A stretch of DNA of 56,357 nt, the filler included, from Sluysia triapertura (taxonomy: Eukaryota): the NCBI GenBank assembly GCA_046118255.1. It is 4 parts of 4 records of this genome, joined end to end, with 100 filler letters (N's around TTAATTAATTAA, not from the genome) between each part and the next. Parts side by side here need not be neighbours in the genome. Positions count along the whole stretch, not along the records: positions 1 to 11,138 come from JBJNIA010188388.1; 3 more parts are not named here. One strand, given 5' to 3'. A program made the position numbers and the translations under genes. Within the stretch, counting starts at the first letter, position 1. Each line of letters starts with the position of its first letter. A model generated the notes under the pieces. That model saw only the letters and a program-made list of their open reading frames with translations. It made no database searches and was not told the origin of the DNA. Positions 1 through 45,349 of this stretch are shown here, one piece after another.

Positions 1-3000
1 CCTGTAATTCTTTGGCGCCAGGATTGAGACATTCGACAAGCATAGCATAAAGTTTTAAAGACATTTATAAGTTATTAAGTTAAGTTTTGAATAAGTATTT
101 TTCTATCTATTTACGTTTAAACTTGTACTTTGAATTAAATTTCAAGCACAAAGTATATATTTGGAATTATTAGATTTCTTGGATTTGATTAACTTTTAAG
201 AATTGATAAAGAAAACAGAAGCTGATTACGAAGAATTGATTCATTTGAAAATATTAAAACTAAGCAAAATAAGAAAGGTAAGAAAAATATGGCAGAAACA
301 GTTAATGATTTAACAGATTGTATAAGGCAACTAACTTTCAGCATGAAACCCACACTTATACTCTCGGAAATGCTCAAATTCAATGGGGCTCTTTTAGAGT
401 ACAACAGCATTGCTGTAGCCAATGGCTGGTCGGAAATGGAAAAAATTAAACGAATACAGAATTATCTGTCAGGAGTTGCAATCCAAACCCACTAAGAAAT
501 TGATCAGGAACATAAATGAGATTGAATTACTTTTGAAAACACATTCACCGAGGAGATAGATGATATATGCAAATATTATAATAAAATGTTGAACATTAGG
601 AAACAAAAATTAATGAAACGGTATATGAATTCGCTTGTACCAGAGCGAAACTGCCTAACGAAAAGAAAGAAACAACATTAATAGATAAGATTAAAAATAA
701 TATAAGACCCGAACTACATATATTTGTAAGTTTAACGGACAATCAACCATTTAAGGAAATAGTTAAGAAATTAAGGAGTATCGAAATATCCCGAATTGAG
801 GAAAAAGATAATGTAAGTTACGTAAGTAATAGTAATTTTAAGGATAATTCAAAGAGCAGATCCCCTAAAAATAAGTTTAAGAATTCTTTTGATAATAATA
901 ATTATGATTCAAATATAAATAAATTTAAATAAATATAAATACAAGACTGAGAAATTCGACAAACAATGTTTTTTCGTAATAATACTACTAACTATGTTCA
1001 GTTTAAACAGAACTAATGTAATAAATGCATTCGATTGCAATCAACCACAGTAGGTAATTGGTATTTAATATAGTAATCAAGGTGGTCGCATTATGAATTT
1101 ACAAAAAATCAGGATTTACGTGGAAATTGTTAATTGGTTGCTTCCAATTTTTGGCAAAATATCTTTTACATCACCATTCAAATTCACAGAAAAATTGAAT
1201 AAAGAAGGAAAAAAGGCAAACGGAGAATATAGCCTTACAGACCATACAAAATAATGAAAACGAAGAAATTGTAGAATCAAAGGAAAATCAAAAATGTCGA
1301 TTATATCCTCTACTTAGGGCAACCTCACCACAAAAAGACGAATGGTCAATATTAAAATAAGTGGTAAAATAATTTTAGCATTAATAGAGACGAGAGAAGT
1401 AGCCTCGTTAATTAATGAAACTTTACTAACAGAAGAAGAACTCATTTATCTCATTTATCTTGAGTTACAGGAGACGCTATTTATAATGAAAGCTTATTGC
1501 GAAATTGGACAAAATAAAATTGAAGTTAAACTAAGAGTAATGAAAAATGTCCTGATATTAGAAATGGATATCCTATCTCAACTAAAAGGAGTTATGTTGG
1601 ACTTTGACAAAGCCACATTAATGGATAGTCATTCGAATAGACCTATTGATGACGACGACCTATATATAGGTGAACCACTGTGGTTGTTAAATAGAAGGAA
1701 TGCATAATTCCAGCGAGAACGAACAGCTCATTAACTGGCCGAATTATATTCATAGCTTTGGATTCAATATGTAATAATTACGAAGGAACAATACCTGTTC
1801 GAATCATAAATTATACCAATGATAATAAATGGTTATTTGCCGGTACAAAATTAGGAAGATTTTTCAGTAGCAAAATTCCGTCACACATCAATATAATAAT
1901 GGATAAAACAAAAAGTAGTGTGATAAAATTACAATATGACATTCAAGAAGAAGGTTATGGAGAAATCCAAATTACTAATAAAAATCTAACAAAAAGACAA
2001 AAAGAACTTTTATACGAAGTAATAAAGAGAGTGATTGATAATAAAGCATGAGGTACCGTTGACAGAGGACAAAGTAATTCGAAGAAAACCATGTAGAATT
2101 CCTATATGCAATCAGAAGGAAATGCAGAACCAAATAGATACTATGAAAAAGGCTGGAATAATACGACCAGTTTCTCTCCTTTTTCATCTCTAGTTTTGTT
2201 AGTAGAGAAGAAGGATAGTATATTGAGATTCTGTACTGATTTTGTAAAATTAAATAAGATGATGAGAAAAGACGTATTCCCACTACCACGAATAGACGAA
2301 ATGTTGGATAAATTAGGAATTGCTACATATTTTACAGAGTGGATATTGGCAAATAGAAATTGTCGAAAAAGATAAACATAAAACAGCATTCACTTGTGGT
2401 AATGAACTATACGAATGTGAAAAGTGTCATTCGGTTTTGACCGGAGCGCCAGCAACTTTTAAACCTTGCATGAATTTTGTATTGTCAGGGTATAAGAATG
2501 TTATGGTTTATATCGATGTCATAATAATATTCTCAAAAGATTTTAAAAATCATCTAGAAGACAATATTTTAAAAAGATGAGAAGTATCCAGACTTAAAAT
2601 AAAACCCACAAAATGTTTTTTTGGCAGAAGAAAAGATTGAATTCTTGGGACACATAGTATCTAAAGATGGTGTTAAACCAAATCCGTGAAATATTGAGAA
2701 AGCAATCAAGTTTCCACAACCTGACAATGTCAAAACAAATTCAAAGTTTTTTGGGTTTAGCCAATTAGAATTTGTTAAAAATTTTGCTAAAATCTCACAA
2801 TCCCTCAGAAAATTAATAAAAAAGGACGTAAAATTTAGGTGAACTGATGAACAGACAAAAGAATTTAAAGAATTAAAGGAACATCTTTCTTGACGTCAAC
2901 AAACCTTTTATATTAACTACAGATGAAATCAATTATGCTATTGGAGCGATTTTATGTCAAAAAGATAAAACAATTTAGAAGCAGTCATAGCTTATGCCAG

Positions 3001-4520
3001 TCGAAGACTTAACACATCAAAAATGAATTATTAGCCTGTAGAAAGAGAGTCTTTGGCAATTTCATGTGTGTGCAAGCTATTTAGACATTACTTGCTGGAA
3101 CAAAAGGTTTACTTATACACTGATCGCAAACCTTTAACATATTCATATAATCATAGAGATGAAGTTAGCAGATTAAACATGTGGTTCAACAAATTATCAG
3201 AATTTAACTTAGAAATTATTTATAAACCCGGAAATTGAAATAATTGAGCAGATTGCAGGTTAACAAACGTAGATGATAAGAGAAATATCAATTTTGTACA
3301 AATTATGACCATATCTGGTAAAACACAAAATTTTGAAATAACCATAAAGCATCTAAGAGAAGATAAATAAATTTCAGTCATCTTGGATGCAGTGACCAAA
3401 AGTACCTTAAATGAAATGCAAGCTAAACGATTAGCTATTGTGGAAGGGATACTAAGATGCAGAGACTCCTTGATTTTACCTATATGATACAGTTCCATGA
3501 TGGACAATTAGGAGGCCATTTGTCAATGAGAAAGACTTTGTCTAGAATAAAGAATAAGTATTACTGGGAAAATATGGAATCCGATATTAAAAAGTGGTGT
3601 AAAGATTGTTCAATTTGTTATAGACGTAAGAACACTAGACAGAAAACAACAGTACCTTTAAAACCCGTGCCAGTGCCATTATCGCCAATGGAATTTATGA
3701 CTATGGATATCATGGATCCTCTTCCAGAAACAATCAACGGAAATAAATATGTAATCATGTTTGTTGATTATCTGACCAGATGGCCAGAAGTAAATCAAAA
3801 GGCCGAGACAGTTGCACAGATATTGGTAGAGAAGATTATTTATAGATAGGATACACCACGGAAATTATTAACAGATCATGGTACCAATTTCACTAGTGAC
3901 GTGATCATATCAGTAGCAAAAATTTTTAATATCTCCGTACTACCCACAAACTGATGGATTGGTAAAGCGATTTTATCGAACTCTTCTTAATATTATTCAG
4001 TCTTATGTAAATGATAGACAAACAGACTGCGATTTACATATTGCTGCATGTTTCATTGCTTACATGAGCTCAGTGCATCCATCTACTAATTTCATTCCAT
4101 TCTATTTAATGTAAGGGAGACATTCTAATATGCCTGCGGATTTGGATTGGGTGCCACCAACATCTCAATATTTAGAACTTCCGAATATGTAACAACAATG
4201 ATGGAACAATTGCAAGATGCGTGGAAGAGCGCAGGTCTTCAAAATAAGTATTCTCAAGAAATATACAAGGATACTTAAGACCAAAAAAGTAAAGAAACAT
4301 AGGTGATGAAACCAGGTTATCAAAACTAGGTTATTCACCTAAACTAGATAAACCTTTTAAAGGACCTTACTTGGTAACTAAAGTCGCAGATACAAATGTA
4401 TTTGTTAAAGACCCTAACAAAATTGATTCCGAAACTTTTGTAGTACATGTAATAGATGTAAGAAGAATACAACTTAAGAAACAGAAAATTACAAGATTGA
4501 AGGTTAAGCCTAAGTAAAAA
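1..4520 (+). mobile_element. Degenerate Ty3/Gypsy LTR retrotransposon, gag-pol internal region
   Basis: Domain order gag-PR-RT-RH-INT across frameshifts and stops. Gag AVANGWSEMEKIKRIQNYLSGVA (~410-480); decayed protease ALIETREVASLI (~1378); RT RFCTDFVKLNKMMRKDVFPLPRIDEMLDKLG, SGYWQI, KHKTAF, YIDVIIIFS; RNase H YASRRLN, EKESLAI, YTDRKPL; integrase HHCC HDGQLGGH...CKDCSIC, MDIMDPLP, LTDHGTNF, PQTDGLVKRF; GPY/F motif KPFKGPY (~4350). Confidence 0.95.
13..23 (+). promoter_or_regulatory. Probable tRNA primer-binding site of the Gypsy element
   Basis: TGGCGCCAGGA follows cctgtaattc (1-10), which recurs at 11991-12000 immediately before an LTR-type CAACA end. It lies ~270 bp upstream of gag. Confidence 0.6.
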
Positions 4521-5599
4521 GATTGGGACAAACCGCTTTCAATCCAATCATTAAGACACAAACAAGTAGTATTTATGATGCAGCCTTGTATTGATGATTT
4601 AGCTCATACAATGCAAAATGTTCTGTTTAATGAAAGATGGGTCAGATCAGTCAATGACATCGGTGCTACTACATCGAAATTTCTTAACCACATGAGAATT
4701 AGTATTTATAAACCAACCTAGAACAATAACATATAGCGTAAATCCAACATCAATCAACATAAATGGAGTGTTATTTTACTATGCAGATATCTTAGGCCAA
4801 TGTGTATAGGTATCTGTAAATGTGTGGGATAATAGTCCGTTAGAGTTAATTCTAGGATTGAATGTTATCAATAAATTAGAAAATATGGTTATTCATAGTA
4901 AGTATGGTTTATGAAACTTCTACCATGGTCAAGTATAATCATACCACATATTGTTCCACATATTGGCAATGAAATAACTCTTTATCAAACACCATTTTCA
5001 AATCCACCATTACAAGCTTCGGAATTGCCATCACCCGACATTATTGCTTCTACACTTCAACTATGTCATCAGATGAAACCTCGGCTTCATCTGGAATAGG
5101 TTCCATCATCAAGATACATTAATGATCATGACTACTACGAGAAAAGAATTCTATGAGAATAACCTTTTGGCTATAAATACTAATAATATAATTTGTATCT
5201 TTTATAACTAATACTATGGCTACAGAAACTGAAGAACATGACACCGTCGTTAATCATGATAAGAAACAGAAAATTATAATTACTAACATTTACAATCAAT
5301 ATTGGGGATTGGAGCTTCATTGGAACATCACACATTTAGGATTTATCTGAAACCATTATCAATTAATACACCACATAATGTCTACCTTATGGCCAGAGAC
5401 CTTTATTAATAGAGTTCATGAATACGCAGGAAAACATGAAACGCCTATGTACAAGAGATAAACATACTCTGAAGTACTTACTATAACACCAGGTTTGAAA
5501 ATATTTCATGGACAAACAGCTCGACAATCAATATATCAAATACTGTTTATAAATTGTTTGTTATACTCCTATTATTCACCATATTGTGTGTAACTTGGA

Positions 5600-7345: not shown

Positions 7346-7859
7346 TTAATAAATTAAAATAACAATGTTCGTTATTTTATTAGATTATTTTCTTCATTAT
7401 TGTAATTTTTATTATTATTATTATTTATTATTATCTACTCATGTAAAACATCATGTAAAAATTTCATTTTAATAAAAAATGAAATATAAAGCTATCAAAC
7501 AGCAAAATTCAGTTTATAATCGTTTAGCATGGATAGTAAATTTTATTAAGTGGCGCGATCGATGTTCCATGTAATTTTTTTAAGTCTCTATGAGCAATAT
7601 TTGGTGCTGTGCAAAATATGACAAACTGAAATTAATTGTGTGTACTGGGCGCGCAAGAATGAACATAAGACAAGAAAACAATTTATTCTTTACAAAACGA
7701 ATAGTAGGAATACAATAAACTGTTGAAGATAATACTATAAACTACAATAAAACAATTACTTAAAGCAAATAAATTGTCTCATTGTACATTCTACTTTCTG
7801 TTTGTGTAAAATGTGTACAAACATTCTAATTCTTCTCTCTTCTATTTTTTGCATGTACC

Positions 7860-8890
7860 CGTGCTTTGTACACACAATCTAAATCAACCACACCATTACT
7901 TTGAATATAGTTCTTAATTCTTACAATCATGTCCAGATGTACATCACCAATTTAATTTCTTTGCTTGGTTTTAATGGATTTAGTTTTAACTAAATCTCCT
8001 TTCACAGTCTGCGCTTGATGCTATAAATATTCCAGCAATGTCCAACAACTTTGCCAAATCAGAATATTCTTGACTTTTATAAGCAAGTTGCAAAAGTTCT
8101 GGAAAACTCTTCACATATTTTTATTTTAATTTTCTTTGAGCATAAAATTTGAAATTATTGTACTGTTCTCTTATAACTCATTCTGGTGCAGTAAGAAAAA
8201 CTGAATATTTCTTGCACAAAGAAGAGATTTGTCATATCCAAACTCAAAATCGCAATCTGATTTCAACTTTGTCACATTAAAAGGCCATCCAATCTTGAAT
8301 TTCATTTTCTGAAAATGTGTCTTCCAAATGAAAAGTTAATTTATTTAGTAAAAGTTAATTTTAACTCTTTCAATAAAAGTTAAAATAGTTTTTGAATCTA
8401 TTGAAATACATTTTTCTGCTTATTTCAGAACCGTGGATTTGAACTTACCCAAGGTACTAATTTTTTATACTTTGCATGTGTCATGTCTATTGCATCGATG
8501 GGTGTCAATCCACTTGTCTGTAAAGCTTTACACAAGGAAGACAACTTAGAGGACAATTTCTAGTGTAATATAAATTTGTGGATCACTTAATATTTTTGGC
8601 AGTAATTTGCAATATGATCATTTGATGTTTGTAACTCTTCACTGAAGTACTGAATGAGGCTGTCATAATTTAAAGCAAAATGTCATTCAGTTGTCTAAAT
8701 GTTCTAAGGTTGCAGCAATTTCTTTCAAAATCTGTTTTTTGTTGCTTGAGAGGTTGAACATCGTGTAAACTGTACGCATTAGTGTTTCAACTTCAGATAG
8801 CAGTTTAATTCCTTTCCACGTATCAGTAATACCTAAATCCTCTCTAAATGCAACACAGTGTTGTGCAAGATTTCAGATTTCTTTCCATAA
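7860..8890 (-). mobile_element. hAT transposase remnant (ZNF862-like)
   Basis: Minus strand QHCVAFREDLGITDTWKGIKLLSEVETLMRTVY (decayed CxxH region, ~8770-8865) and dimerisation motif ASSADCERRFS...IKTKQRN*IGDVHLDMIVRIK (~7910-8021). Confidence 0.85.
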
Positions 8891-10879
8891 CATTTCTTAC
8901 ATTATAACATTCTTACATACTTATCAAATCAATACAAGAAAATGTATGTGAACATAAAAATTACCAAGAAATGCACAAAAATTAAATTCAATAGTAACAA
9001 TTACTCATTATACTGAATTGAAATTATTTATACTGAAATTAAACAATTATGTTATGATAATAAAGTGAATGGAGCACTAATATTTTATCTTCACACTAAC
9101 GACGCAAATAGTGATAATTTCCAGCAAGAAAATAAAACTTTATATTCTAAAAGAAAATCACTACAGGTAAATTTACTACCCAAAAACTAAAGTTAATAAA
9201 TGGGAGTCTCCCAAAAATCAAAAATTAACTAATTTAAATGAACTAATTTATAAATATCTGAACAAAAATTCTTAATTATAAAATTCTATTAACTTGAGAA
9301 GGGAGTTTCCTAAAAATCAAAAGTGATCCAGTAAAATTAATAATTTATTTATTTATTTATTTTCTTTTTAAAATTAGATTTTATAACAAAAGAAATGAAA
9401 TGAAATGAAATAATAAATAAAATTACCAATACATAGACACCTTCGTAAAAATTAAAATTTCTTTTTTTTGTGTTGTTGATTGTTATAGTAGATTATATTT
9501 GTTGCCTCTTGTTGTGTTTTAAAATTTTCAAGTATTCCCTTTTATACTTTCTTATCATCCAATAATTCCTGAGTTTTATAATCAAACATATTCTCATACA
9601 ATTCATCATAAAAATCGTTAAGAATTAAACAGACAGTAATAACTTCGACAGTTATATGGTACAGTCTGTCAAACTTTATTAGATACAGAATACAAAGAAT
9701 TGATTATTACTTTCCTCTACTCTACTCGATCTACTTTTACTTAATTTACTTATCACATTAAAATAACTCATTAGTACTGTTAACAAACATAAAAATAACG
9801 AATTTAACTTTAGATTTTAGAATTCAATTGATTTTCGCCTTTATACACCCAATTTTCTAAGGAAAAACGTTTAATGTTCTTATTCGCAACCAAATGACTT
9901 TCATAGCAATCATCTCATATTCAATTCATTATCTTTTTATCATTTTAAGTATAAAAATTCAACATTACATAATTAAAATTTGACTTTGCTCAATACGAAC
10001 TTGTTCAAACAATATCTTTATTGAAAGGTCTTTTTTATACAAATACAACCAAAGACATTCAAACCTTATTCATAAAAACGTACTTTTTCTTAATTAAGGT
10101 AAGATTTTAATTAATATGTTTTGGGACTTAATCTTATTTTATTTTTAAATGTTTCATTATAGTTCTAAAATTATTTAGTATTTGATAAAGCATTCAAGGG
10201 CCTCTAAATGCTTTCACCTTCGCCACTCTGATTCCCATTTCTACTTCTTTATGTTAATTATTAATGTATCAAACTTATCTTTAATATTAGCAAAAATGGT
10301 TTTATTTCTCAAATATTTTAAAGATTTCTACTACTTTACTCAAAGGTCACAAATGCTTATCAAGGTTTCAGGATTACCTAAATAATCTCAAGATGTTCAA
10401 AGGTTACCTAATATTTCGAAAGGTTTTCCAAATCCATCTGAAACCTTCAGAAAGGTCTTTGGGAACTCAAACGTATTCTTCAATTCCCAAAATGACTATA
10501 GATGTCTTTACAACCCTCACTTCAATAATATCTCATCACACCTCACCACCACTCCAAAAGAATTCCTCCTGCACTTTCATTTTTCCCTCTTTCCCACTCA
10601 TTTTTGTTTCACAATTTGACAATCTCAACAATTTTCTGAAATAATTTGTACGATAAAAATTACGTTGCAGTTGTCGTCTGAAATGTTGGAAGTTACTGTA
10701 ATCGTATTCAACAACTCTGAAATTCGTTGCAAGTTCATCGTTAGCTTTACGTTGACCATCACGAATAATTATAACTTTAGCTTAATAGTAAGTAATAATA
10801 ATGCTGCAACAATAATATAACTGCCAAAAAATAATGAAAAATTGCTGCCAAAATAGTAATGATGAATTGTGACTTTAAA

Positions 10880-11138
10880 TGAAACACTCTTATTGGCTGT
10901 CCAATATTTTTGAAATTGTAAGATAAAAATTGGTTATCCAACCAAAAACATAAAAGCAATATAGAAATTCATTCTGGTTGAGTAGCCAATAAATGAATAA
11001 AAATTATAATTGATGAGAGAACCACTATCAGTGGTGACATTGATTAGAAGTTTAATGAATCAGCCACTGATAGTGGTAGTTACTGAATAATTTTTGTGAT
11101 TTAAAAATAATAAAATTAAAACGGTGATAATAATAATA
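10880..11138. repeat. Hairpin/CCAAT block, copy A of a dispersed non-coding family
   Basis: Perfect 14-bp inverted repeat ACCACTATCAGTGG (11021-11034) / CCACTGATAGTGGT (11064-11077). Several CCAAT/ATTGG upstream and AAT microsatellite downstream. Similar to 42541-42730. Confidence 0.7.
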
Positions 11139-11238
11139 NNNNNNNNNNNNNNNNNNNNNNNNNNNNNNNNNNNNNNNNNNNNTTAATTAATTAANNNNNN
11201 NNNNNNNNNNNNNNNNNNNNNNNNNNNNNNNNNNNNNN

Positions 11239-11321
11239 TACAATAATAATTAATAATAATAAGTAATTCAATCTACAGTAATAAATTCAATAACAATAAT
11301 TAATAGTAGTAGTTATTCAGC

Positions 11322-11366
<45 letters not shown>

Positions 11367-11400
11367 TAACAGTAATAGTAATGATAGTTAATATAATAAT
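11239..11400. repeat. (AAT)n microsatellite
   Basis: Directly visible AAT run next to an assembly gap. Confidence 0.95.
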
Positions 11401-11899
11401 AGAAAATCTATTCTCTTTTGTCCAAATAATTTTTAATTTTATATAGTTTGTATTTAATCTCATTTCAGTAACGTTTTTGTCGATTAAAATGCTCTTAAAT
11501 TGGGTATAACATTATTCTCTCAATCTTTAATTTAAATTAATTTTGATCGAGAATAATGTTAATAATTTTTAATTGTATACGAATTTTACCTAATCTTAAA
11601 TTAATATAATTTTGACTTTCATATTATAATGATTTTTATGTTCTTAAAATGTAATGTTATAATGTCTTTATAGAATCTCATTTTAATATTAAATGTTATT
11701 TGTTGCTACATTTCGAATTTACATTAATTCTATTAAATCTCATTTTAAATTGACAAAGGCGTTATAATCTTAATAAAAATGATTTTAATTTTACTTTAAA
11801 AATAGTTTTTATTTTAAATAAATTTAAATTAAATTAATTTTAGATTTTAAAATATTATACCACACTATTATTATTATTTCATTTTAATTAAATATTCCA

Positions 11900-18290: not shown

Positions 18291-19676
18291 TAATGAAAAT
18301 AATTTACAGAACAATAGAGTCCGGACAAGAATTAAATATCATAACAGAATAAAATTTATAAAGTAAAAGAATTATTAATAATTAAATAAATGGAAATATT
18401 ATTATAGAACAAATTTACAAAAAATATAAAACTACTAATAACTACTATTTAGAATGTAATTATTAAACAATAAAATATTTTGCATAGAACAAAATAATAA
18501 CATTTTAATCCATTATAATCATTGCTAATAAGGAGTAGTACTATAAAAAAGTAATAATAAAATAATTTATCATACAAAAGATCATTGTAGTTATACAAAA
18601 TTTAAATATAAATACCCAACATATCGTATTCATGTTATTATTCGAGGTATATATAATTATAAGCAACGAGTTATTATTCAAAAAGCTTCGACTCATTATC
18701 CGAGCAGCGAACTACTATCTTAAGAAAGTTATTATCTCGAAGTTAAAGAAGGTATTTAATTATTACAATTGATAACATTATCCTGTTGATACAAAGATAT
18801 TAATTTTAAAAATAAATTTGATTGTATTTATTTTAGAATAACCATTAACTATTAATAACCATTAGAATAACCATTAAGCTAATTTATAGTAGTTTCATAA
18901 AATATTATTATCATATTCGTTTTTCTTTTATTTTTATTTTGATGATCTTTGCCATAATACATGATTAATAGAGTATTCAGTTTAGTTAGTTTTATCTTGT
19001 TTCGAGGAAGAAAATTTGGATTTTTGTCACATAAATCGGCACTTCCATCTCTTACACCACAGCCCAGTGAACAATAACCTCCAGCTTATATTAAGTGTTA
19101 ACAATAAATTCAAGTATTATACCTAAGATAACTCAAGTTTCAGTGTTAGTTTATAAAATTAAANNNNNNNNNNNNNNNNNNNNNNNNNNNNNNNNNNNNN
19201 NNNNNNNNNNNNNNNNNNNNNNNNNNNNNNNNNNNNNNNNNNNNNNNNNNNNNNNNNNNNNNNNNNNNNNNNNNNNNNNNNNNNNNNNNNNNNNNNNNNN
19301 NNNNNNCCCTCTTGTAATCTGGGTTTGTTATTATTGCACTATATTATGCTCATTTAAGCAACTACAATCTTTTGTTTTTGTTTACATAAGTTCAAAATTA
19401 AAATATAAGACAATAAATATATTTTAAATTAGGTCGACAATTTTTGAGGTAAAGAACGTCTTTTTATTTGTCAAAATTAGCATTTTTTACTTCAACATAA
19501 ATGATTACTCATCAGAAATTGATACATAAGTATTTTATATTCAAATATTGTATAATTTATAATTATTTATGATTTATAATTATTTTTTTCACAATAAATT
19601 TTATCAAACAATCTATTACTAATAAACGAAAATAGTAAATAAAATCTATAAATACAAATTAAATTTATACAATTAT

Positions 19677-20315
19677 TTAATCTACCAATCTAATATTATT
19701 CGTAAAATTAGAATGAGAAATGTTTGTTACAGTATCGTTAATAGATTCGTTTGAATTATAGTAATTGGGTAATAAATCTGGTTCTTCATCAATTTTTTTA
19801 TCATATGAAATGGAATTCGATTCTGAAAAAGCAGAAGAATCGAAAAAATTATTCGAATAAAACTGATATATTGAATTGTAATAGGAATTTGGATAAAAAA
19901 ATGGAATTCCATTATTATTAGTTATAGTGGATGTGGTTGGCGTTGAATGAGAATATTCCGTTGATATAGTACCGTAGTGATGTTGAGTGGTATTAAAAAT
20001 TTTTTGGGTATTATGACAATATGTTTGATGTGGTAAAAATTGTGTTGTTTGTGATTCCGTTGGTAAAGTTGGCTGCTGTTGCAATGATTGCGGATGAAAT
20101 TGTGCGTTGGTCGAGGAATTGTTACTATGGTTACTGTGACCCACTAAAACAGATGCATTAATTGGATTATTGTTGTGATCTAATGGAGAAGACTGATGTA
20201 AAATTAACGAACCATGTGGAGTGCTGGCACGATGCGGAGAATTTGAAAAAAATTTTCGACGTTTTAATTCACTTTCGTCACGTTTTTTTTTCATGCGACG
20301 ATTTTGAAACCAAAC
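19677..20315 (-). CDS. Last exon of an ANTP-class (Hox-like subclass) homeobox gene
   Basis: Acceptor aaatag| then VWFQNRRMKKKRDESE... (homeodomain helix 3), followed by an uninterrupted S/N/H/Q/T-rich tail. 213 codons including the stop; phase-0 intron before homeodomain residue 47. Confidence 0.93.
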   Translation of the reverse strand, partial: VWFQNRRMKKKRDESELKRRKFFSNSPHRASTPHGSLILHQSSPLDHNNNPINASVLVGHSNHSNNSSTNAQFHPQSLQQQPTLPTESQTTQFLPHQTYCHNTQKIFNTTQHHYGTISTEYSHSTPTTSTITNNNGIPFFYPNSYYNSIYQFYSNNFFDSSAFSESNSISYDKKIDEEPDLLPNYYNSNESINDTVTNISHSNFTNNIRLVD

Positions 20316-22689: not shown

Positions 22690-22982
22690 TGTTGGGGCAA
22701 AAGGCCTAAAAAGTGCCAAGTAGTATAATTGAATATATTAAAAATGAAATTGTTAGACGGGGCTGANNNNNNNNNNNNNNNNNNNNNNNNNNNNNNNNNN
22801 NNNNNNNNNNTTAATTAATTAANNNNNNNNNNNNNNNNNNNNNNNNNNNNNNNNNNNNNNNNNNNNGAAATTATGGTGTGACTTAAATAGTTTATATTAT
22901 GTGAGAATTTTAGAACACTTAAATATATTTAATTATTTCTTTGTGTTTATATATGTAAGTCCTCTATGACACCGGGATTACA
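22690..22982 (+). mobile_element. LTR-like fragment(s) spanning an assembly gap
   Basis: Starts TGTTGGG and matches 27882-27954 (shared aaattgttagacggggctga). After the gap it ends with gtaagtcct...tgacaccgggatt, resembling the LTR end and PBS at 1-25. Confidence 0.5.
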
Positions 22983-28998: not shown

Positions 28999-29108
28999 AG
29001 AAAATAAAGGAAGAACAATATCATTTGTTATTAACTAAAATGACAAATTAATGAGTTAATTTGTGCAATATTTTCTATTTCAAGAAATAAAACCTGTTTT
29101 ATCTTCAG

Positions 29109-29749
29109 CATCAAACAATGCGGCACTGGCACTGCATATTTGAACAGAAGCCCTGAAATAATGTTGGATGAATACTCTTATTTGGAATCAGCTTCACGAT
29201 ACTCCATGCAACATCAAGAACCTCTTATATTGATGGTGTTTCACAGGCGGCCCCCTTGCGACTACAATCAAGGCATTTTGTGTGTAACACTATTGGACAT
29301 TCCACCTGAAAATGAAGATGACGGTGACGGTGATGATGGAGATGAGGAAGGAGACGATGACGGAGATGAAGATGAGTTGGAGGAGGATTTGGATGAGGAT
29401 ATGGAGTATGATTATGAGGAAGAGGAAGTTGGTGGTGGTGAAGATGAAGGCGATTATGGAGAAGACGAAGACAATGAAGTTGGAGAAGCTGGTGGTGGAG
29501 ATGCTGATGATGAAGATGATGAAAAAGACGTTACTGGAGGAAGATCTGAGGATGAATCTTCTAAGAAAACAAACAAAATCACAACAGCAACAAAACAAAG
29601 GCATCAGTGTTCTGCGATAAATTCATTTTCTGGTACTAGTTCTTATAATGTTTTGAATAAACCAATCAGAAGACGAATTGGGAAACAACTCGTTAAACGT
29701 GAAGCCGGTGAATCATTTACATCTCATTCAAATCGAGAGCAAAGTGAAA
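29109..29749 (+). CDS. Internal exon of an unknown protein with a long D/E/G acidic tract
   Basis: cttcag acceptor (29108), open frame IKQCGTGTAYLNRSPE...EDDGDGDDGDEE..., phase-1 donor (gttggt at 29750, or gtgaaa at 29744) compatible with the next exon. Confidence 0.75.
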
Positions 29750-31144
29750 GTTGGTTTTCGATATTAATGTGCTTAAATTTTGAAATCAAAGTAAAATGAA
29801 TATAAGTTATGCTGAACTATTGAGAATGTGCCTAACAAGAATGTGCCTATTGTCACAATTATCTCTAATGTATGTATATTCTTTATGTATATGTTAAGTT
29901 CAATACCGAATCTGCATTCTCTTTATGATCCTTATTCGGTACAGTGTTACAGTTCCATGTAATTAAAAGTTATATCTTTGGTTTCATTTAAAAGTTTAAG
30001 TACGATGTTTGTTCGGTCAACAACTCGCAGAATGCCTCATTCCATTCGAGGATCATTGATTATTTTTCAGTAATCATTATCATTGTTAAATATTTCTCTC
30101 AAAATACTTATAAAGCTCGAAATTTTTAATAAACTAAGCGTACCAATGAGCCAACAAGGTATCTTAAATTAGAACCAAACTTTATTCATAAATGCTGTTT
30201 TAAATTTGCTAAATAGAATATTTAATATAACTCGAAATGGTTCGGTATTCATTTGATTAATTCTACTCAACAAAATGTTTAATATAAATTTAAATCATTC
30301 ATACTTAAATTCAGAAGCAAAGACATGTGCTTCTAAATTATTTTGGGTGCCTAAACCAAAGTAAAAAACAAAATAACCAACTGTAACTTATTTTTATAAC
30401 ATTTATAACAAAGAAAAAATCTAATAACAATAATGAAGAGATGTGCGATTTTATTTTAATATCATGATTATATCATAAATTTTCTGGATCTCAACATATC
30501 TGCCAATTGATTTTCAACTGTTTATTTTTAATGGTTTTAATGGAGGAGGACTGTCAAAAATGTCTCAAATGTACTACCTAATATCCATCATTTTCTTTAA
30601 CTAAAACTCTTAAATATAAATTTCTATACAACCTGAGAATTGTTCAATTACTATAAAGGGTGTGTTTTGTTGTTTGCTTGAAGTTATCACAGATTAGTAC
30701 AACTCATAATTTGAGTCTCATCAACCTTTCGGTAAAGCTATATCAACTACTTTTTTCCATACTTACTTTATATCCGGAATTTGATATGTACCATGTTTAT
30801 CTTAGATATATCTTACTCTGCGCGAAAATTAATGCTCTTCAGATCAATGGAACTTAAAGTTAAATAGATAAATCCAGTTATTCTCATGGTGACATAAGTA
30901 CCAAACAGTATAACATATTTAGCATTTTTCATTATGCTGAATTGGTGCATTATCTCATTAGTACGTTCTAAGTTGTGCAATTTAACATAACCTACTTCTA
31001 CTCAAATTGAATAAAGAGCTTCTCGAATATTGCTGGACACTGATTGAATTCGTAAACTTGCGACTATCCATTGCATTGTTTTCATCAAATAAATATATCA
31101 AACATTTTATTTGACCCAATAAAATTAATTTGAAGCTATTTTAG

Positions 31145-32071: not shown

Positions 32072-32896
32072 TCGTAAAATCCCGTGTATAAGCCGTGGGA
32101 TTTTAAACTAAATTTTTTTAAAAGAAAATTTAAATAATGTATTCAAAACCACTAAAATCCTCATCAAAACTCGAGCAATCTGAATGTTTGGGTAACTCTT
32201 CTAAACTTTCTTCAACTTCTTTATGATTTAAGTCTTCTCGACATAAAATACTTGACCTATAAAATCCAGCCCTTGATTCTCCTATCCAATTACAAATTAA
32301 ACCATAAGAGGCTTACTTTAAAATGATCTATTAACTGAGATATGGAATGGTTGTAAAATCTTGGTTGACTCATCATACATCACTACTAATCTGGAAACAG
32401 ATTTAATTTATTTTTGACATCTCCAGTTAAATGGGCCTTTGCTGAATCAACTATTAACATTGATAACGGATCGGTCTTTTTCAAACTTCATGTACCCATT
32501 CCATCGTGATTTTACTATCGATCCAACATTTGGAAATTACTTGAACAACTATTCCTCTCGGAAAACTTCTTTCAAACATTATTAATGGTGGTGATTTATT
32601 GCCATCAGCAGAAACACATAGAACAACAGTAAAGTGAGTTTTTTCATGCCTTGTTGAAATTCTGACTGATTTCACACCTTTTGATTCGACAGGAGGTGAA
32701 AACAACAAAAAATAACTTTAGTTTGTGAAAAATGAAGTCTAACATAGGTTTTAAATAAAGATTTAATAGAGGGTGTGACCTATATAAAGTTAAAAAGAAT
32801 CATTAAACTAACTTATATAAATGTGTGTCTAAATGATGCTAAAAATGAAATATTTGTTTCCATGGATAAGCAGAGGCTTATGCATGGGATTATAGG
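32072..32896 (-). mobile_element. Internally deleted pogo/Tigger-family element in an intron
   Basis: DDE_1-type VESKGVKSVRISTRHEKTHFTVVLCVSADGNKSPPLIMF. TIRs tcgtaaaatcccgtgtataagcc / ggcttatgcatgggattatagg, with TA on both flanks. Confidence 0.9.
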
Positions 32897-35999: not shown

Positions 36000-38150
36000 A
36001 TTAATATTATTATAATGTCTGTTATTATTATTACAATTTTAATTGAGTACTTGGTAATTGGTGAATTGAGGACATTTTAAATTCGGCGGCTTTGAGGACG
36101 GCTATTTTTCAGGAAATAAAATAGCTTCTCTGTAGACGGTATCTTTTTCTTCGTCCGATGAATCCATATAAATATATGTTTCTGAATCACTTTCTTATTC
36201 GGAATTATCAAAATATTCAATAACTTGATTGCTTGATGGTATTTCTTTTGCCGAAAATTGGCAAAACCTTTTGGAATAATTACCTCTTCGTCTCAGCTCT
36301 AAAGCATCTAAAACATGCAATAGTGACAATTTATAATAAACAAACGTTCAAGTTCTTATCGGTTCTAACAAGATCGATGAGGGTCTTGACCATAATTCGA
36401 AGTAAAATGTTTATCAGACAGTTTAAATTTTTTTGAATCAAATTTTGCAAAATTATGTACTTTCAATATTACCTATTTTTAACACTTAGCTGTTAATCTC
36501 TTACAATATCCCTCAAAACATCTTTGGTAAGACACGTTTCATGAGAGTAATATTTGTGTATTTATTTGCAGTACCTGAAAGAAACTCACATGACTGGCCA
36601 GATGTGTCCCAGTTTCGAAGAAGGTCAGAATCTAATTGCGCAATACGAATCCAATAAAATCAGTTGGTCTGTTGGATCCAATAGTATCTTTTGTCATCAT
36701 CAATCATTAATTAATATGAATAATATAATGGTTAGTTTTGTTTGCATCTTTACTACAAGATATCTTTAGCATTGAACAACTCAATAGAAACTTGAATGAT
36801 AACTGTGTTCCCGACTAAAACGTTGTTATTTAAAAATACTCAGCAGCATAGATAATTAAAATATGAATAAACAATTTTAACGTATTCGCATGGAGTTATT
36901 TCACCATTCGGTTAATAATGCAATTTCTGAGTCAAAAGCCTTTTTCTTTTGATATATACACCCTGTTTTAATTAGGACACCCTCTATTAAACACAAATTA
37001 ACAATACTTTTTAATAAATAAAACACGAATAAAATATTACTTATTTATAGTTCCCAATTTTAGCACACTCTTAATTACTATATTGCATTTAGTTAAATAA
37101 ATTTCATTTCAAAAGTATAATAGGACACATTATACAAACTTTTTAAGAGACTACAACGTATTTTATAAAATTAGTATTTTATTGATCCTGTGTTTTTCAA
37201 TACCTCTACACACCTTATTGTCATCGAATTAATCAATGTATTTACACTTTTTATTTCAATCTTTTTCCAAGCATCCAATATTGCATTTTTTAACTCAAAA
37301 AAGGAGAAAGTAATGCAAGTATAGCCAAAAAGTTAAACAGATCAAGACATGCGATATCCAATTAAATGGGCCGCCTTAAAGAACTTTCCAATCGCAGAAA
37401 AGGAGTTTGAAATACAACATTGTCTACAACTCGCATAATGTCAGATTTAGAGCTAAACTACAGTAAAACAAATGTATGGAGAATATTAAAAAATAGTGAT
37501 GAGGTCGAATTCATTAAAATACTTGCTAAACCCCCACTCTCTGATGCTAATAAAATAACAAGAATTAACTTTGCCGAAAATCATTAATAACCACATTGAC
37601 TGGACCAAGATAATATTCTCAGATTAGAAGACATTTAATTTGGATGATCCTGATGGTTATAAATACTATTAGCATCATCTAAAGGATTTAAAAGAAATAT
37701 TTTCTAATAGAATTTGTGGTGGATGATTAGTTATGGTATGGGGTGCCATAATTTATAATAAAAAGCTAGCTTTACGTGTGGTTCCATCAACTCTTAATGG
37801 TGATAAGTACTATGAATTGATAAAAGAAGTAGTAGATCCAGAAAATATCAATGTCATCTTTCATCAGGATAATGTTCCTTGTCATCGATCAAAAACTACA
37901 CTTAATAAGTTCAGTGAAGATTGATTAAAAGTTTATTTTTCTGATGTTCATTTATAAGTTATCGAAATAATTGGAAACAGCTGAATAACTTATCATTGCT
38001 ATTCAAAAAGCGATATCAAAAATAAAAATAAAATAAACTGCGGTATCATGATTTTCATACCATGTTCGTTGACTTAGTGCTTGCATCTGAATAATTTACT
38101 GCTTCCTCAATTTTCAACGTTCGCCGATTGACTATTTTTACTTAATAAAG
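36000..38150 (-). pseudogene. Decayed intronless ORF of unknown identity, interrupted by the Tc3-like element
   Basis: Coding-like, more GC-rich minus-strand stretches with stops (e.g. RIAQLDSDLLRNWDTSGQSCEFLSG; IVNRRTLKIEEAVNYSDAST) on both sides of the transposon. No family recognised. Confidence 0.3.
36957..37925. mobile_element. Tc3-like (Tc1 family) transposon remnant with internal inversion
   Basis: Plus strand WTKIIFSD*KTFNLDDPDG, MVWGAI, FHQDNVPCH (37300-37924). Minus-strand C-terminus ELKNAILDAWKKIEIKSVNTLINSM (~37220-37296). Probable terminus near 36957. Confidence 0.88.
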
Positions 38151-40802: not shown

Positions 40803-42282
40803 TTAAGAACAACTATAGTTATAGGTAGAATTGGATTTGAGATAATATATTCTTACAATTTTCATTGAGTGTGTTAATCTTTTGTTTATTATGATCTTAT
40901 AATTTTTCTTAATTCTTTCTTTGACGTAATATGAATTTAGTGGTACCTTAAAATTTATTTCAAAATTACTTACATCGTTTGGGCATGAATTTAGTATGTT
41001 AATATTAAAGTAATAAGCTATAATTAAACAACAACAATCATAAAGTTTTATTTTACAACTAAAAAGGTTAAATATGATTTTTAATTTAAAAACTGCTTTG
41101 ATAATGAATTTTGATTCCAAATTTCTAGCATCTGTTGTCCATCTTCTTTTTGTTGCATTTTTCGGACCCTACAGAACTGTTTGTTATCTAAATTATGATC
41201 ACATAAAATTAAAAACATAAAACTAACAAAATCGAATATAGTACATATTACTTTAACAAATTGGATCACTATACGTGTAATTTTATTTAACAATCTTACG
41301 TCTACGAAGTCACTTAGCTTAACCAAACCAAACAGAAATGGAACGTGATGTAGTATTGTGAATTGATAAACATAGTTTGTAGATCGTATCATCTTCTTCG
41401 TATATTTTAACCAAATTTTTAGTAGCGAGTATTTGTCTAGTACTAAAAGCATATTTTTGTTAATCAGAAAAGTATCTTCTGTAATTGTTTCAACTAAATT
41501 ATCGTATTCTATTCCGAGAAAGAGATTCATGGATATACTGTCGACAGTAATGTATCTTATTTCACGCCTATTCGTAATCACAGGGTTGATAGCTTCTGCA
41601 ATAACACTAATGTTTGACATCTGTTTGAGAAAATGAAAATTTAGTAGGACTCCTTCATAAATTATAGATAAAGAAAAATTTGTTGCAGTTGTGGTTAGAT
41701 TTATTTCAATAATGTTTAAAGCTGAATCGTTATAGCATCTTAAATCAATTGAAGATTCCAACGATAATCTAAAAACTAAAGAAAACAAAAATTGTTTTAG
41801 ATCTGATTTTATATATTGAATTCTTTTATCTTGAACTACTTTACAAGGATTTTTGGTATGTTTTATCATAAGACTAAATGAGAAATTATCTACTTCTGTA
41901 GTCATTAAATTTACGGCTAGACTAACTTTTCTCCATTCTTTACACTGGGAACATCGACACCAAATAAACAACGATTTATTAGAAATGAAATCATTAACCG
42001 AACTGTTATGATGTGACTTCGCAATCCATTCCTTTTTCGACTTCGTAACTTTCTGACACTGTATGTCAAAAATCAAAGATGGTGTTATTTTTCCGTACAA
42101 TTATTACAAATATGTTTACCATTTAAAAAATGATACCATTTTGGATTAGAATCAGAACATTCTTTGGTAAGATATAACAGACACATTGAATAGTTTGAAG
42201 AACATCTGTTTTCATTACATTGGTTAACTAATTTCTTTTTCATAAATTCTGCACCTTTGAAATTTCGAAGTAAATGATCCAT
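40803..42282 (-). pseudogene. KDM1B: Intronless KDM1B/LSD2-like N-terminal module (C4H2C2 zinc finger + zf-CW + probable degenerate SWIRM), no amine oxidase
   Basis: CNENRCSSNYSMC...EC...KWYHFLNGKHICNNC follows the remembered KDM1B C4H2C2 finger (RWYHLSCGEHFCNEC). KKEW...DFISNKSLFIWCRCSQCKEWRKV...NPCKVVQDKRI follows the CW finger. The two ORFs join if one base is added in the homopolymer run at ~42088-42092. No GxGxxG motif downstream. Confidence 0.75.
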
Positions 42283-42483
42283 ACTAAGGTTTTTGGTAAA
42301 TGAAAATTGAAATTTTTATCCTTTTCTCGTTTTTTTAAACTTTTTGTCTGACTTTCTTTTTTAAAATTTGTTTTTATTGTATCTGGCCAAATTTCTTTGC
42401 TGTCTGAAAAATTTTTTTGACAGTAAAACTTCTAATTGTGTCTATATTTTCTGACTATTCTTAATTGATACTATTTTTGTTTG

Positions 42484-42730
42484 CCCAATCAGAGTATTTG
42501 TGAGAGCTGTGGATATGTATACTCTGATTGGGTGCTGAATAAAATTAATTAAAAGTTGATTTTAAATTACTGACCGTCATCAGTAGTGTCACTCGAATGA
42601 CATTTTTTAATGGCGTTGGAAGTACTGATGACGGCAGCAACTATTTTAGTTAAATTAGAGAAAAATATAAAAATTAAAGTTTAATTAACAATAGTAATAA
42701 CAACAGCAATAATAATAATAACAACAATAA
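42484..42730. repeat. Hairpin/CCAAT block, copy B
   Basis: Inverted repeats CCCAATCAGAGTAT (42484-42497)/ATACTCTGATTGGG (42519-42532) and CCGTCATCAGTA (42574-42585)/TACTGATGACGG (42623-42634), then AAT/AAC microsatellite. Confidence 0.75.
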
Positions 42731-42870
42731 GATTACTGTTATTATTATTATTGTTAAGAAACAAAAAAATGGCATAAATCTTTGTAAAATCTTTATAAAA
42801 TCTTTAACACGATCTTATTCTGTCGAATTCTTCTATTCTACATATAAATGAAAAAATAAAAACAAAACAA

Positions 42871-42944
42871 TGTCGTATTGTGAAGGAACAACAATAACTA
42901 AGTATATAATGTATCATTTGTGGTTGTTGCTTCACAGTATGATA
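42871..42944 (+). ncRNA. Pre-miRNA-like hairpin (candidate)
   Basis: 27-position unbulged stem: 21 Watson-Crick, 4 G-U, 2 mismatches; 20-nt loop. Confidence 0.3.
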
Positions 42945-45349
42945 ATGAAACCTTTAAAGTTATCTTAAATCTGTTTTTGAGAGATGTAATGATTTAGGTT
43001 GTAAGTGAAATGAAGAATGTTAGAATGATTTATTGAAACTTGTTGAAGATTTATAATTTGAAAACAAGATTTATGCGTTGGATAGAATGGTTTGAAATGC
43101 TTAATGAAAGGTTGAAGTTATTTTAATTTGAATGACGATTACAAAATAAATCTTAGTATATTATAATGCCATTACGAGTAATTGTTGATATTGAATATGT
43201 GTATATGAAATGGGTTTAAGTTGATGTAGTTGATTGAAGGTTTTGATGTAAATGATCTATGTTTCTGAGGTATTTGTTAGGGTTGTTGAATAATGCTATT
43301 GTGCTTATAGTTTGTATACTTTGTTTTGTGATTGTGGTTTGGTTGTTGAAATATCTTGTGAATGAGTGTTGTAAATTATTCGAGATTAAATATCAGAGTT
43401 TGTTATTTTATAGGTGGTTGAAATATTAGTTGAATTGTTGATGTGTGAGTTGATGAGGTGTTGTGATTATCGAATGTTATTTTATGATGTTTGCGTTGGT
43501 GTAGTTCATAGTAAAAAGTGTGATTATTTTGAAAGTTGAATTTTAGTGAAATTTAATTTGTGAATAATGAACAAGGAATTTTGACTAATTTTTTGAGTTA
43601 TGAGTGTTGGTCACTACAATAATACTAACCTCCTGATTCTCTCAAGTTATTAGCAAAAGATCTAGAATAAAACTAAAATAAATAATTATTAAGATCTGTT
43701 AATACTAAATTGATATAAAAACAACTTATGAAACATAAAAACTTATGATTATAAAAATACGACAGTGGAGTTCTACGATATATTACAAAAATTAACATTA
43801 TTATTTCCAAGAAATTAAGGTTAACGTCAGAGTTTACAAATTTTTTTGAAAACATTAAAGCATTCCATATATAAGGCGACAAAGCAATTGTAGCAATTCT
43901 TATTAACAGATACCAAACTAGCTTAAGAAGATTTAGTCAATTGATTCCTAAACGACAAGATATTTAGAGCATTTTATTAGTAGTTCTTGGTCATTATTAA
44001 CGAATAATTTTGGTTATCCGTGATCAATCGTAAGTTAATTGATCATAAGTTAATTTTTTTAACTGAAAAATAAATTATAGACTTAGTCTTATTAAAATTT
44101 ATTCTAGGTTAATCTAGATATAATAATATTAATTTAACATTTATAAAAAAATTTAGAAATTTTAATAACAATATTTTACAACTTGACAATTATAATTTTT
44201 CTAAAAGACCAATATCTTTTGATTGTTCATTGTATAGAATTTTGCTTAAAGGTTATAAAGATAGTCAATTGACTCAGTAAGTTATGATGCGATGGTATCA
44301 TACAAATGAAATGCTATGCCTGACACAGTGCAACAATAAGATAGATTTACTGTCTTGTGGAGGCATTATTTCGTAACTGTACATTAGAAAGCTAGTATTT
44401 TACGGTACAGAAGTAATTTGTTAATTACAAGAAATTATTATCAAGTTAGAAAGTCCTACTAAGAGATGCAGCAAAGATGTATTGCCTCCAAGTATAAATA
44501 AGTATAAATGAAGCTGCTTTTAAAACTCTAAAGAAATCTGCAGAAATGTTTCGAATACAAAAGTGCATGTTAGATGTTGAAATACTGACGATATTTGTGG
44601 TAATAATCAAGCTCAAAATATGATCTATTATCGAGGACTTTTCACTACTTAATGATTTTATTGATCTAGCACATATTTATAAACTACTAAATTGGTNNNN
44701 NNNNNNNNNNNNNNNNNNNNNNNNNNNNNNNNNNNNNNNNTTAATTAATTAANNNNNNNNNNNNNNNNNNNNNNNNNNNNNNNNNNNNNNNNNNNNTATT
44801 AATCGGAACATTCATGAATCTTTTTTTCGAAACGCAAAGCTAGATCTTTTATAAAGAGAAATTAGAGCTGCAATAAAAATCATCAATAAGGTGCATCAAT
44901 TTTTCATTATTGAATCTGTCTTTTTTGTTGCGATATGAATTAATTTATTTAATCTAATACTGTGGTACAAATTTTTCGCACATTGAAAACGAAGATGATG
45001 GAGAATAATACTATTTAGTAAACAGCTTATAATCAAATGTTTTAATAATATAACATCGACTGAAAGAGGAGATACTAATTTTAATTTCTTTAAAATTGGA
45101 TTAACAATCTAGAAATAATTGTCACCAATTCTTGAATACGAGAAATACAATGTTTTACAATTTCCAATTGAGATTAAACAATTTTAGCAAAATTATCTTC
45201 AAATTCTTTGGAAAAACAAATTCCGAAAATGAAATTAAAATAATCATGATTTTATTAAATAAAAATTGATAAATTTCTGATTGTTTTTATAGTATATAAT
45301 AAATTATTAACCTAAATGTACCAAAAGTACCATAAAAAGTTGAAATTGT

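What the first reader, a model, noticed from the sequence alone, without database searches (positions are those of the whole stretch)
10998..11100. Covarying hairpin shared with 42541-42657
Seen: copy A cc-ACT-atcagt...actgat-AGT-gg versus copy B cc-GTC-atcagt...actgat-GAC-gg, i.e. three adjacent compensatory pair changes around a fixed atcagt/actgat core. Both loops contain tttaatg, both stems extend to ~100-115 nt with AT-rich outer arms, and both are preceded by CCAAT motifs and followed by an A-rich ...aaaattaaa tract and an AAT microsatellite. Inference: structure rather than sequence is conserved (RNA packaging/processing signal, ssDNA replication hairpin or cruciform).
Basis: seen in the sequence. 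Interest (0 to 1): 0.7.

Follow-up and report, generated by a model that had tools for sequence, protein, structure and literature searches.

The report
Paired hairpins of a dispersed repeat
Two distant spots in an AT-rich animal genome carry the same roughly 200-base unit of two hairpins followed by an A-rich, AAT-repeat tail, with the base pairing kept while the letters changed; it is most likely the folded end of a family of mobile elements, and its exact job is not established.

Summary
Across 33 aligned pairs there are 6 compensatory changes (4 in HP2, 2 in HP1), all double transitions, and 3 one-sided G-U changes. A and B are reciprocal best matches in the window under composition-aware scoring, but not under plain scoring. 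The window is animal nuclear DNA (aconitase, homeobox exon, transposon debris), not viral. No Rfam family, third copy or outside relative was found. B abuts a multi-copy, frameshifted KDM1B/LSD2-like ORF and a very abundant G/T-rich repeat. Best reading (0.30): the structured 3' end of a non-LTR (SINE/LINE-type) RNA. Rivals: amplified pre-miRNA-like hairpin pair (0.25), DNA-transposon or Helentron-type end (0.22), inverted protein-binding sites kept by arm conversion (0.13), chance (0.07). Two copies cannot establish covariation statistically.

The parts
10929..10990 (+).
   Evidence: RNA fold -15.9 kcal/mol, z -4.2; aligns to B-HP1
10991..11020 (+). Locus A A-rich hinge
   Evidence: 15 of 30 identical to B
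11021..11077 (+). Locus A hairpin 2 (HP2), 14-bp perfect stem plus 9 upper pairs
11103..11120 (+). Locus A A-rich tract with ATTAAA
   Evidence: 16 of 18 identical to B in gapless register from the HP2 3' arm; 3 other places among 111,656 18-mers match as well
11128..11138 (+). Locus A (AAT)n run, cut by an assembly gap; AAT runs continue at 11242-11401 beyond the gap
42476..42543 (+). Locus B HP1, 14-bp perfect core 42484-42497/42519-42532, holds the two CCAAT/ATTGG
   Evidence: z -5.4 on +, -7.0 on -
42544..42572 (+). Locus B A-rich hinge
42573..42637 (+). Locus B HP2, 12-bp perfect stem with internal loops above
42661..42678 (+). Locus B A-rich tract with ATTAAA
42686..42753 (+). Locus B (AAT/AAC)n run followed by an inverted (ATT)n run
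42470..42477 (+). Left copy of an 8-nt direct repeat flanking the B two-hairpin core (right copy 42640-42647); no counterpart in A
   Evidence: about 0.8% by chance at fixed ends, noticed post hoc
41084..42282 (-). Neighbour of B: uninterrupted-by-intron, frameshifted KDM1B/LSD2-like ORF (N-terminal zinc finger, then CW finger), in many diverged versions; ATG 194 nt from HP1
   Evidence: PDB phmmer E 0.008 and 0.8, collinear on KDM1B; Pfam zf-CW E 0.051; depth
42871..42944 (+). Neighbour of B: hairpin D, 30 pairs with 6 G-U, strongly + strand; not homologous to HP1/HP2
   Evidence: (z -6.0 on +, -1.5 on -)
42870..43590 (.). Neighbour of B: very abundant G/T-rich repeat, unidentified; unique DNA starts near 43589
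   Evidence: no Pfam hit in six frames

Best explanation
A and B are diverged members of one dispersed repeat family, and the module is its conserved structured end. Most likely it acts as + strand RNA: the 3' end of a non-LTR (SINE- or LINE-type) transcript, in which the two hairpins are the fold that a reverse transcriptase recognises and the A-rich tract plus (AAT)n is the tail at which target-primed reverse transcription starts. Selection on the fold, through G-U intermediates, would give the double-transition compensations. Shown: homology, two hairpins, compensations, fixed distance to the tail, many diverged versions of B. Inferred: transcription, strand, the enzyme and the mode of mobility.
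For: Homology runs from HP1 through the A-rich tract to the AAT run, which starts 51-52 nt after HP2 in both copies. All four hairpin folds are more stable as + strand RNA. 6 of 6 compensations are double transitions and 3 of 3 one-sided changes are G-U; 6 of 6 has probability 0.078 under the 65% transition share of the laid variants. In run X1, summed depth is 113 at 42416, 497 at 42460, about 3100 at 42506-42514 and 2384 at 42612 (36 contigs with a variant), against about 15-50 in most unique bins; a sharp left edge at HP1 fits a short or 5'-truncated element. The 5 listed strong variants inside the module all fall in loops or the hinge (only the best 40 of 548 substitutions and 12 of 63 indels were shown). 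Stem-loops with compensatory changes at 3' ends of stringent LINEs/SINEs, and TAA-type tails, are described in PMC3747384 (passages).
Against: No reverse transcriptase or endonuclease was found next to either copy (Pfam; homologue search). No exact Pol III A or B box and no tRNA head. No target-site duplication around hairpins plus tail in either copy; B's only notable direct repeat brackets the hairpins alone. The shared stems hold 4 G-T and 3 A-C oppositions, so there is no real strand bias in the mismatches, and B's + strand is G/T-rich, which favours + folds anyway. Two 60-nt hairpins 50 nt from the tail are larger and further off than the stem-loops I recall for L2/CR1/RTE (recalled). No RNA evidence at all. 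The 5' part of the KDM1B-like ORF has similar depth (about 4000), so the module may instead be one part of a larger amplified unit.
Confidence: 0.3

Rival explanations
1. A tandem pair (with hairpin D, a trio) of pre-miRNA-like hairpins on one + strand transcript, amplified with a repeat, whose products have diversified by paired changes.
For: Hairpin sizes 57-74 nt with 15-30 pairs and close tandem spacing; the four strongest single hairpins of the window are A-HP2, D, B-HP2 and B-HP1; D's left edge has a depth like HP1/HP2 (3380); the HP2 5' arm is conserved beyond what pairing needs (15 of 21); B-HP2's best Rfam match is mir-184 and includes the invariant core (20.6 bits).
Against: No miRNA family reaches its gathering score; mir-184 needs 54.1 bits and is not among the 11 matches for A-HP2, whose best is another family at the same level (mir-725, 20.2 bits); the changed triplet falls in the would-be 5p seed and the would-be 3p seeds share nothing; A-HP1 has only 15 pairs and a 30-nt loop.
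Confidence: 0.25
2. The terminus of a DNA element, read as folded single-stranded DNA or as inverted transposase sites: a Helentron/HINE-type rolling-circle end (arm plus nearby inverted copy plus microsatellite, carrying a captured KDM1B fragment), or a 162-bp MITE with an 8-bp target duplication.
For: Arm, nearby inverted copy and microsatellite in that order, T-rich flank and gene-fragment capture are features of DINE-1/HINE/Helentrons (PMC4067079 passages); a multi-copy frameshifted KDM1B-like ORF adjoins B; B's core is bracketed by an 8-nt direct repeat (about 0.8% by chance) and the HP1 and HP2 arms share an ATCAG core so that the module aligns to its own reverse strand; the genome holds decayed DDE transposons.
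Against: No distal partner of the HP2 arms or A-HP1 arm in a plausible position within 2 mismatches, and no Rep/helicase motif in the window; arm-to-inverted-copy distances of 29-37 nt exceed the 3-22 nt given for DINE-1; no shared CTRR end; A lacks the direct repeat and homology continues past it.
Confidence: 0.22
3. Inverted protein-binding sites (CCAAT-type and ATCAG motifs) of a bidirectional promoter or origin in an amplified unit; the hairpins are a by-product kept perfect by gene conversion between arms, which also makes apparent compensations.
For: Four CCAAT/ATTGG in 100 nt at A and two at B; the KDM1B-like ATG lies 194 nt from HP1 on the - strand; GC skew flips from negative to positive at 4 of 18 listed AAT/ATT runs; mismatches show no strand bias.
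Against: The CCAAT is not kept at homologous positions (CCAAC in A); conversion does not predict all-transition changes (p about 0.08); A has no KDM1B-like ORF on its left; the runs at A and B are not among those with a clear skew flip.
Confidence: 0.13
4. Two unrelated hairpin regions that resemble each other by chance in AT-rich DNA.
For: Plain alignment score is inside the window background and 84 of 5000 structured shuffles reach it; the log-odds margin over the best unrelated segment is only 2.5 bits; no third copy; tests were post hoc.
Against: Two collinear hairpins, both with matching arms (0.0017 and 3.5e-5), equal spacing, and an 18-nt tract in gapless register.
Confidence: 0.07

Closest known systems
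3' stem-loop plus simple-repeat tail of stringent LINEs and their SINEs (UnaL2/UnaSINE, SART1, I element, plant ME1-type; PMC3747384)
   Same: Structured end with compensatory changes, followed by an A-rich or TAA-type tail, in a dispersed family
   Different: Two large hairpins about 50 nt from the tail; no partner LINE, RT, Pol III head or target duplication found
DINE-1 / HINE / Helentron (HLE2) termini (PMC4067079, PMC11417382)
   Same: 12-14-nt arm with a nearby inverted copy, microsatellite next to it, T-rich flank at B, captured-looking host gene fragment
   Different: Two hairpins in tandem, longer loops, no distal subTIR, no short 3' palindrome, no RepHel in the window
Canonical Helitron (HLE1) 3' end
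   Same: Hairpin near a putative end; gene capture
   Different: Stems are not 16-20-nt palindromes; no shared CTRR; homology continues past the hairpin
Clustered pre-miRNAs, nearest Rfam model mir-184 (RF00657)
   Same: Size and shape of the hairpins; the invariant core of HP2 matches the 3' half of the mir-184 consensus
   Different: 20.6 bits against a threshold of 54.1; seed region unlike; A does not match the model
H/ACA snoRNA (hairpin-hinge-hairpin-tail; features recalled)
   Same: Overall layout and length
   Different: ACT instead of ACA after HP2, 12-14-bp perfect basal stems with no pocket in A, no Rfam match

Membership tests
Non-LTR retroelement 3' end (stringent LINE/SINE) | A-rich or short-tandem-repeat tail at the 3' end | tested here: met
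   A-rich tract and (AAT)n at the same distance in both copies
Non-LTR retroelement 3' end (stringent LINE/SINE) | 3' stem-loop kept by compensatory changes | tested here: inconclusive
   6 compensations in 33 pairs, but only two sequences
Non-LTR retroelement 3' end (stringent LINE/SINE) | Dispersed copies | tested here: met
Non-LTR retroelement 3' end (stringent LINE/SINE) | RT/EN ORF upstream, or a partner LINE with the same end | tested here: inconclusive
   None next to either copy; the genome is not held
SINE (Pol III head) | tRNA-, 5S- or 7SL-derived head with A and B boxes | tested here: not met
   No tRNA, no Rfam match, no exact A/B box (motifs recalled)
Non-LTR retroelement 3' end (stringent LINE/SINE) | Target-site duplication around element plus tail | tested here: inconclusive
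   None convincing; A's tail is cut by a gap
Helentron/HINE (HLE2) | 12-15-nt subTIR pair at the two ends | tested here: not met
   No distal partner in a plausible position within 2 mismatches in the window; gaps could hide one
Helentron/HINE (HLE2) | TT insertion site, empty paralogous sites | not testable with these tools
   No genome held
Helentron/HINE (HLE2) | RepHel-coding autonomous partner | tested here: inconclusive
   No Rep or helicase motif in the window by recalled patterns
Helitron (HLE1) | Short hairpin then CTRR 3' end | tested here: not met
   CTGA 6 nt after A-HP2 but CTAT in B, and homology goes on
hAT-type MITE | 8-bp target duplication and terminal inverted repeats | tested here: inconclusive
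   8-nt direct repeat and loose inverted ends in B; absent in A
microRNA gene | Hairpin of pre-miRNA size with at least about 16 pairs (criterion recalled) | tested here: met
   A-HP2, B-HP1, B-HP2 and D; A-HP1 borderline at 15
microRNA gene | Precisely processed 22-nt reads from both arms | not testable with these tools
   No RNA holder listed
mir-184 (RF00657) | Gathering score and conserved seed | tested here: not met
   20.6 of 54.1 bits for B; no match for A
H/ACA snoRNA | ACA box after hairpin 2 and pseudouridylation pockets | tested here: not met
   ACT in both; no pocket in A-HP2
Hammerhead or HDV-like ribozyme of retroelements | CUGANGA...GAAA core, or HDV loop motif (recalled) | tested here: not met
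   CUGANGA only in B, inside the stem; none in A; no HDV motif

The most novel reading that the evidence does not exclude
An amplified selfish unit that couples a KDM1B/LSD2-derived chromatin-reader module (zinc finger plus CW finger) on one strand with a cluster of structurally conserved hairpin RNAs (HP1, HP2, D) on the other, the hairpins keeping their fold while their small-RNA products diversify between subfamilies: a mobile element carrying both a histone-mark reader and its own small-RNA cassette.
Probability: 0.1. Interest if true: 0.7.

Novelty: new variant of a known kind. Interest (0 to 1): 0.35.

Why it matters
Structured ends kept by compensatory change are a known trait of mobile elements, so the likely answer is an unannotated repeat family in a little-sequenced animal. 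It would matter more if the family alignment shows true covariation in two large tandem hairpins that fit no described LINE, SINE or Helitron end, or if the hairpins are processed to small RNAs from a unit that also spreads an LSD2-type reader domain; with many natural copies, the family would be its own mutational scan of the fold.

Tried and rejected
No genome is held, so no genome-wide copy search was possible. Rfam: nothing at gathering score in the window or in narrowed scans. Covariance model from A and B: no third copy in the window; the best non-self match was 22 bits (E 0.041) with many broken pairs. Pattern scans: 5 metagenome and 41 + 1 + 1 + 1 viral stretches; on inspection none has the two-hairpin layout, and the model's best score on all 49 was 23.1 bits over part of its length. 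KDM1B-like ORF: no relative among longer proteins, one repetitive borderline hit among 1.8 billion representatives, none in viral contigs; a SWIRM-like look of its C-terminal part is by eye only and found no support. A by-eye likeness of 10539-10781 (-) to an RTE-type endonuclease was not supported. A by-eye hAT likeness at 7500-8900 (-) got no Pfam support. No RNA holder listed. Run X2 shows the same profile at about 1/270 of X1 in the abundant repeat and is not independent support. The abundant repeat has no long frame under nuclear or mitochondrial codes, and its likeness to other G-rich segments is marginal. C/D snoRNA, SL RNA (no splice donor or shared Sm site), hammerhead and HDV ribozyme readings were rejected. 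Earlier findings of the scan: none returned. Paper searches for a matching element found none: (open-access library only).

Full report
Setting. The window is AT-rich (most 1-kb bins 20-33% GC) animal nuclear DNA: two exons of a cytoplasmic aconitase (Pfam E 9e-20 and 2e-12; most listed relatives are animal proteins at 63-73% identity), a homeobox 3' exon, a Ty3/gypsy-type integrase piece and a decayed DDE transposase. N gaps at 11139-11238, 19164-19306, 22767-22866 and 44697-44796 put A and B on different contigs, so their 31-kb distance may mean little. No whole genome is held.

Observation. Both stems are as described: 14 perfect pairs in A (11021-11034/11064-11077) and 12 in B (42574-42585/42623-42634), with z-scores of -8.5 and -5.6. 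A fourth compensatory pair lies inside the core. The outer AT-rich arms are weak and are not the shared feature.

The unit is larger. Upstream of each hairpin is a second one: HP1 at 10929-10990 (z -4.2) and 42476-42543 (z -5.4). They align to each other, and the 'CCAAT motifs' are their arms; B's CCAAT corresponds to CCAAC in A. On the 179-column alignment, 33 named pairs give 6 changes on both sides (4 in HP2, 2 in HP1), 3 one-sided changes to G-U, 8 pairs broken in one copy and 16 invariant; slid structures give 0-1 compensations. All 6 are double transitions (probability 0.078 at the 65% transition share of laid variants). Downstream, an 18-nt A-rich tract matches at 16 positions in gapless register from HP2, a match reached by 3 other places among 111,656, and an (AAT)n run begins 51-52 nt after HP2 in both. 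Against: plain scoring does not separate A-B from background and 84 of 5000 structure-preserving shuffles reach it; composition-aware scoring makes them reciprocal best hits at 32.1 bits, but the best unrelated segment scores 29.6. The 5'-arm shuffles (0.0017 and 3.5e-5) used boundaries chosen after the fact. I take homology as very likely. Covariation from two sequences is not a statistical result.

B is a repeat. Two public runs hold part of 41000-44600. Laid on 40600-44690, X1 gave 4528 contigs, of which 427 are 99% alike or more, 962 at 95-99, 1752 at 90-95 and 1387 under 90. A 1.1-kb contig without differences covers the unique flank at depth 14.9. Summed depth is 113 at 42416, 497 at 42460, about 3100 in the HP1 loop, 1824 in the hinge, 2384 in the HP2 loop, 523 at 42857, 3380 at 42868 and 49,000-147,000 in the bins of 42929-43613. 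The tool warns that summed depth is no copy number, and the run type is not on record; the spread of identities and 36 variant contigs at 42612 still show many diverged versions, plausibly tens to over a hundred. The five strong variants listed within the module are in loops or the hinge, but most variant rows were not shown. X2 repeats the profile at low depth and is not independent.

Neighbours. Left of B, on the - strand and 194 nt from HP1, starts a frameshifted ORF whose two pieces match human KDM1B/LSD2 collinearly (E 0.008 and 0.8; zf-CW E 0.051); it is also multi-copy (depth about 330-4300). Right of B lie an inverted ATT run, hairpin D (30 pairs, 6 G-U, z -6.0 on + and -1.5 on -) and a very abundant G/T-rich repeat of unknown class. 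Left of A nothing could be identified by tools.

What it is not. No Rfam family reaches threshold. B-HP2's best match, mir-184, covers the invariant core but scores 20.6 of 54.1 bits, and A-HP2's best is another family at the same level, which is what hairpins of this shape get. A model of the module finds no third copy in the window and nothing convincing in 49 pattern-matched loci from metagenome and viral collections. snoRNA, SL RNA and ribozyme motifs fail.

Mechanism. The fixed order hairpin-hairpin-A tract-(AAT)n, the sharp left edge in depth, the better folds on + and the transition-only compensations point to the 3' end of a retroposed RNA recognised by shape (0.30). Such ends, with compensatory changes and TAA-type tails, are described in PMC3747384 (passages seen). 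No RT, Pol III head or target duplication was found, and the mismatches show no strand bias (4 G-T, 3 A-C). A pre-miRNA-like cluster (0.25) fits the sizes and hairpin D but not the lack of a shared seed. A DNA-element end (0.22) fits the arm-inverted copy-microsatellite order and gene capture described for DINE-1/Helentrons (PMC4067079, passages; PMC11417382, passages) and B's 8-nt flanking repeat, but subTIR partner, CTRR and RepHel tests were not met or were inconclusive. Inverted binding sites kept by conversion (0.13) and chance (0.07) remain.

Novelty and verdict. The feature is real: an undescribed two-hairpin module of a dispersed repeat, not assignable to a named family. Searches found no description (listings only, open-access library; no supplements were read, and repeat libraries such as those in supplements could hold it). 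Structured element ends are a known kind, so I file it as a new variant of a known kind, interest 0.35. The bolder reading, a unit that spreads an LSD2-type reader together with a hairpin-RNA cassette, has about 0.1.

Noticed in passing
window 41084-42282 (-): Frameshifted KDM1B/LSD2-like ORF without apparent introns, present in many diverged versions in run X1; no amine-oxidase domain follows in the frames read.
   Followed up: partly
window 42870-43590: G/T-rich repeat with summed depth thousands of times the unique flank, highest at its left end and truncated near 43589; class unknown, no long ORF.
   Followed up: partly
window 42871-42944 (+): Hairpin D, 30 pairs with 6 G-U, the most pre-miRNA-like fold in the window; no Rfam family.
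   Followed up: partly
window 21511, 34478, 35046, 40388: GC skew flips from negative to positive across these AAT/ATT runs (4 of 18 listed), as at bidirectional promoters or origins.
   Followed up: no
window 19677-20315 (-): Homeobox gene 3' exon starting in helix 3; the upstream exon was not found in the window.
   Followed up: partly
window 50040-51329 (+): Last two exons of a cytoplasmic aconitase (IRP1 type), at most 73% identical to any listed relative: a little-sampled animal lineage.
   Followed up: partly
window 226-4600 (+): Decayed Ty3/gypsy-type element (integrase zinc finger E 2e-18).
   Followed up: no
window 37601-37910 (+) and 32484-32717 (-): Decayed DDE transposase pieces (DDE_3 E 9e-5; DDE_1 E 0.12).
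   Followed up: no
window 7500-8900 (-): Broken frame that looks by eye like an hAT transposase C-terminus; no Pfam support.
   Followed up: partly
window 10821-10905: Further CCAA(T)-bearing short repeats and small palindromes upstream of A-HP1; 10887-10898 matches B's HP1 3' arm at 10 of 12, perhaps a decayed third arm.
   Followed up: partly
window 10340-10460: About five imperfect short repeats with an AAGGT core, seen by eye; could be subterminal repeats.
   Followed up: no
window 11139-11238, 22767-22866, 44697-44796: Assembly gaps written as 44 N, a 12-base all-frame stop linker, 44 N; they create false repeats in repeat finders.
   Followed up: no
window 29044-29796 (+): 251-aa open frame with a long acidic (D/E/G) tract, unassigned.
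   Followed up: no
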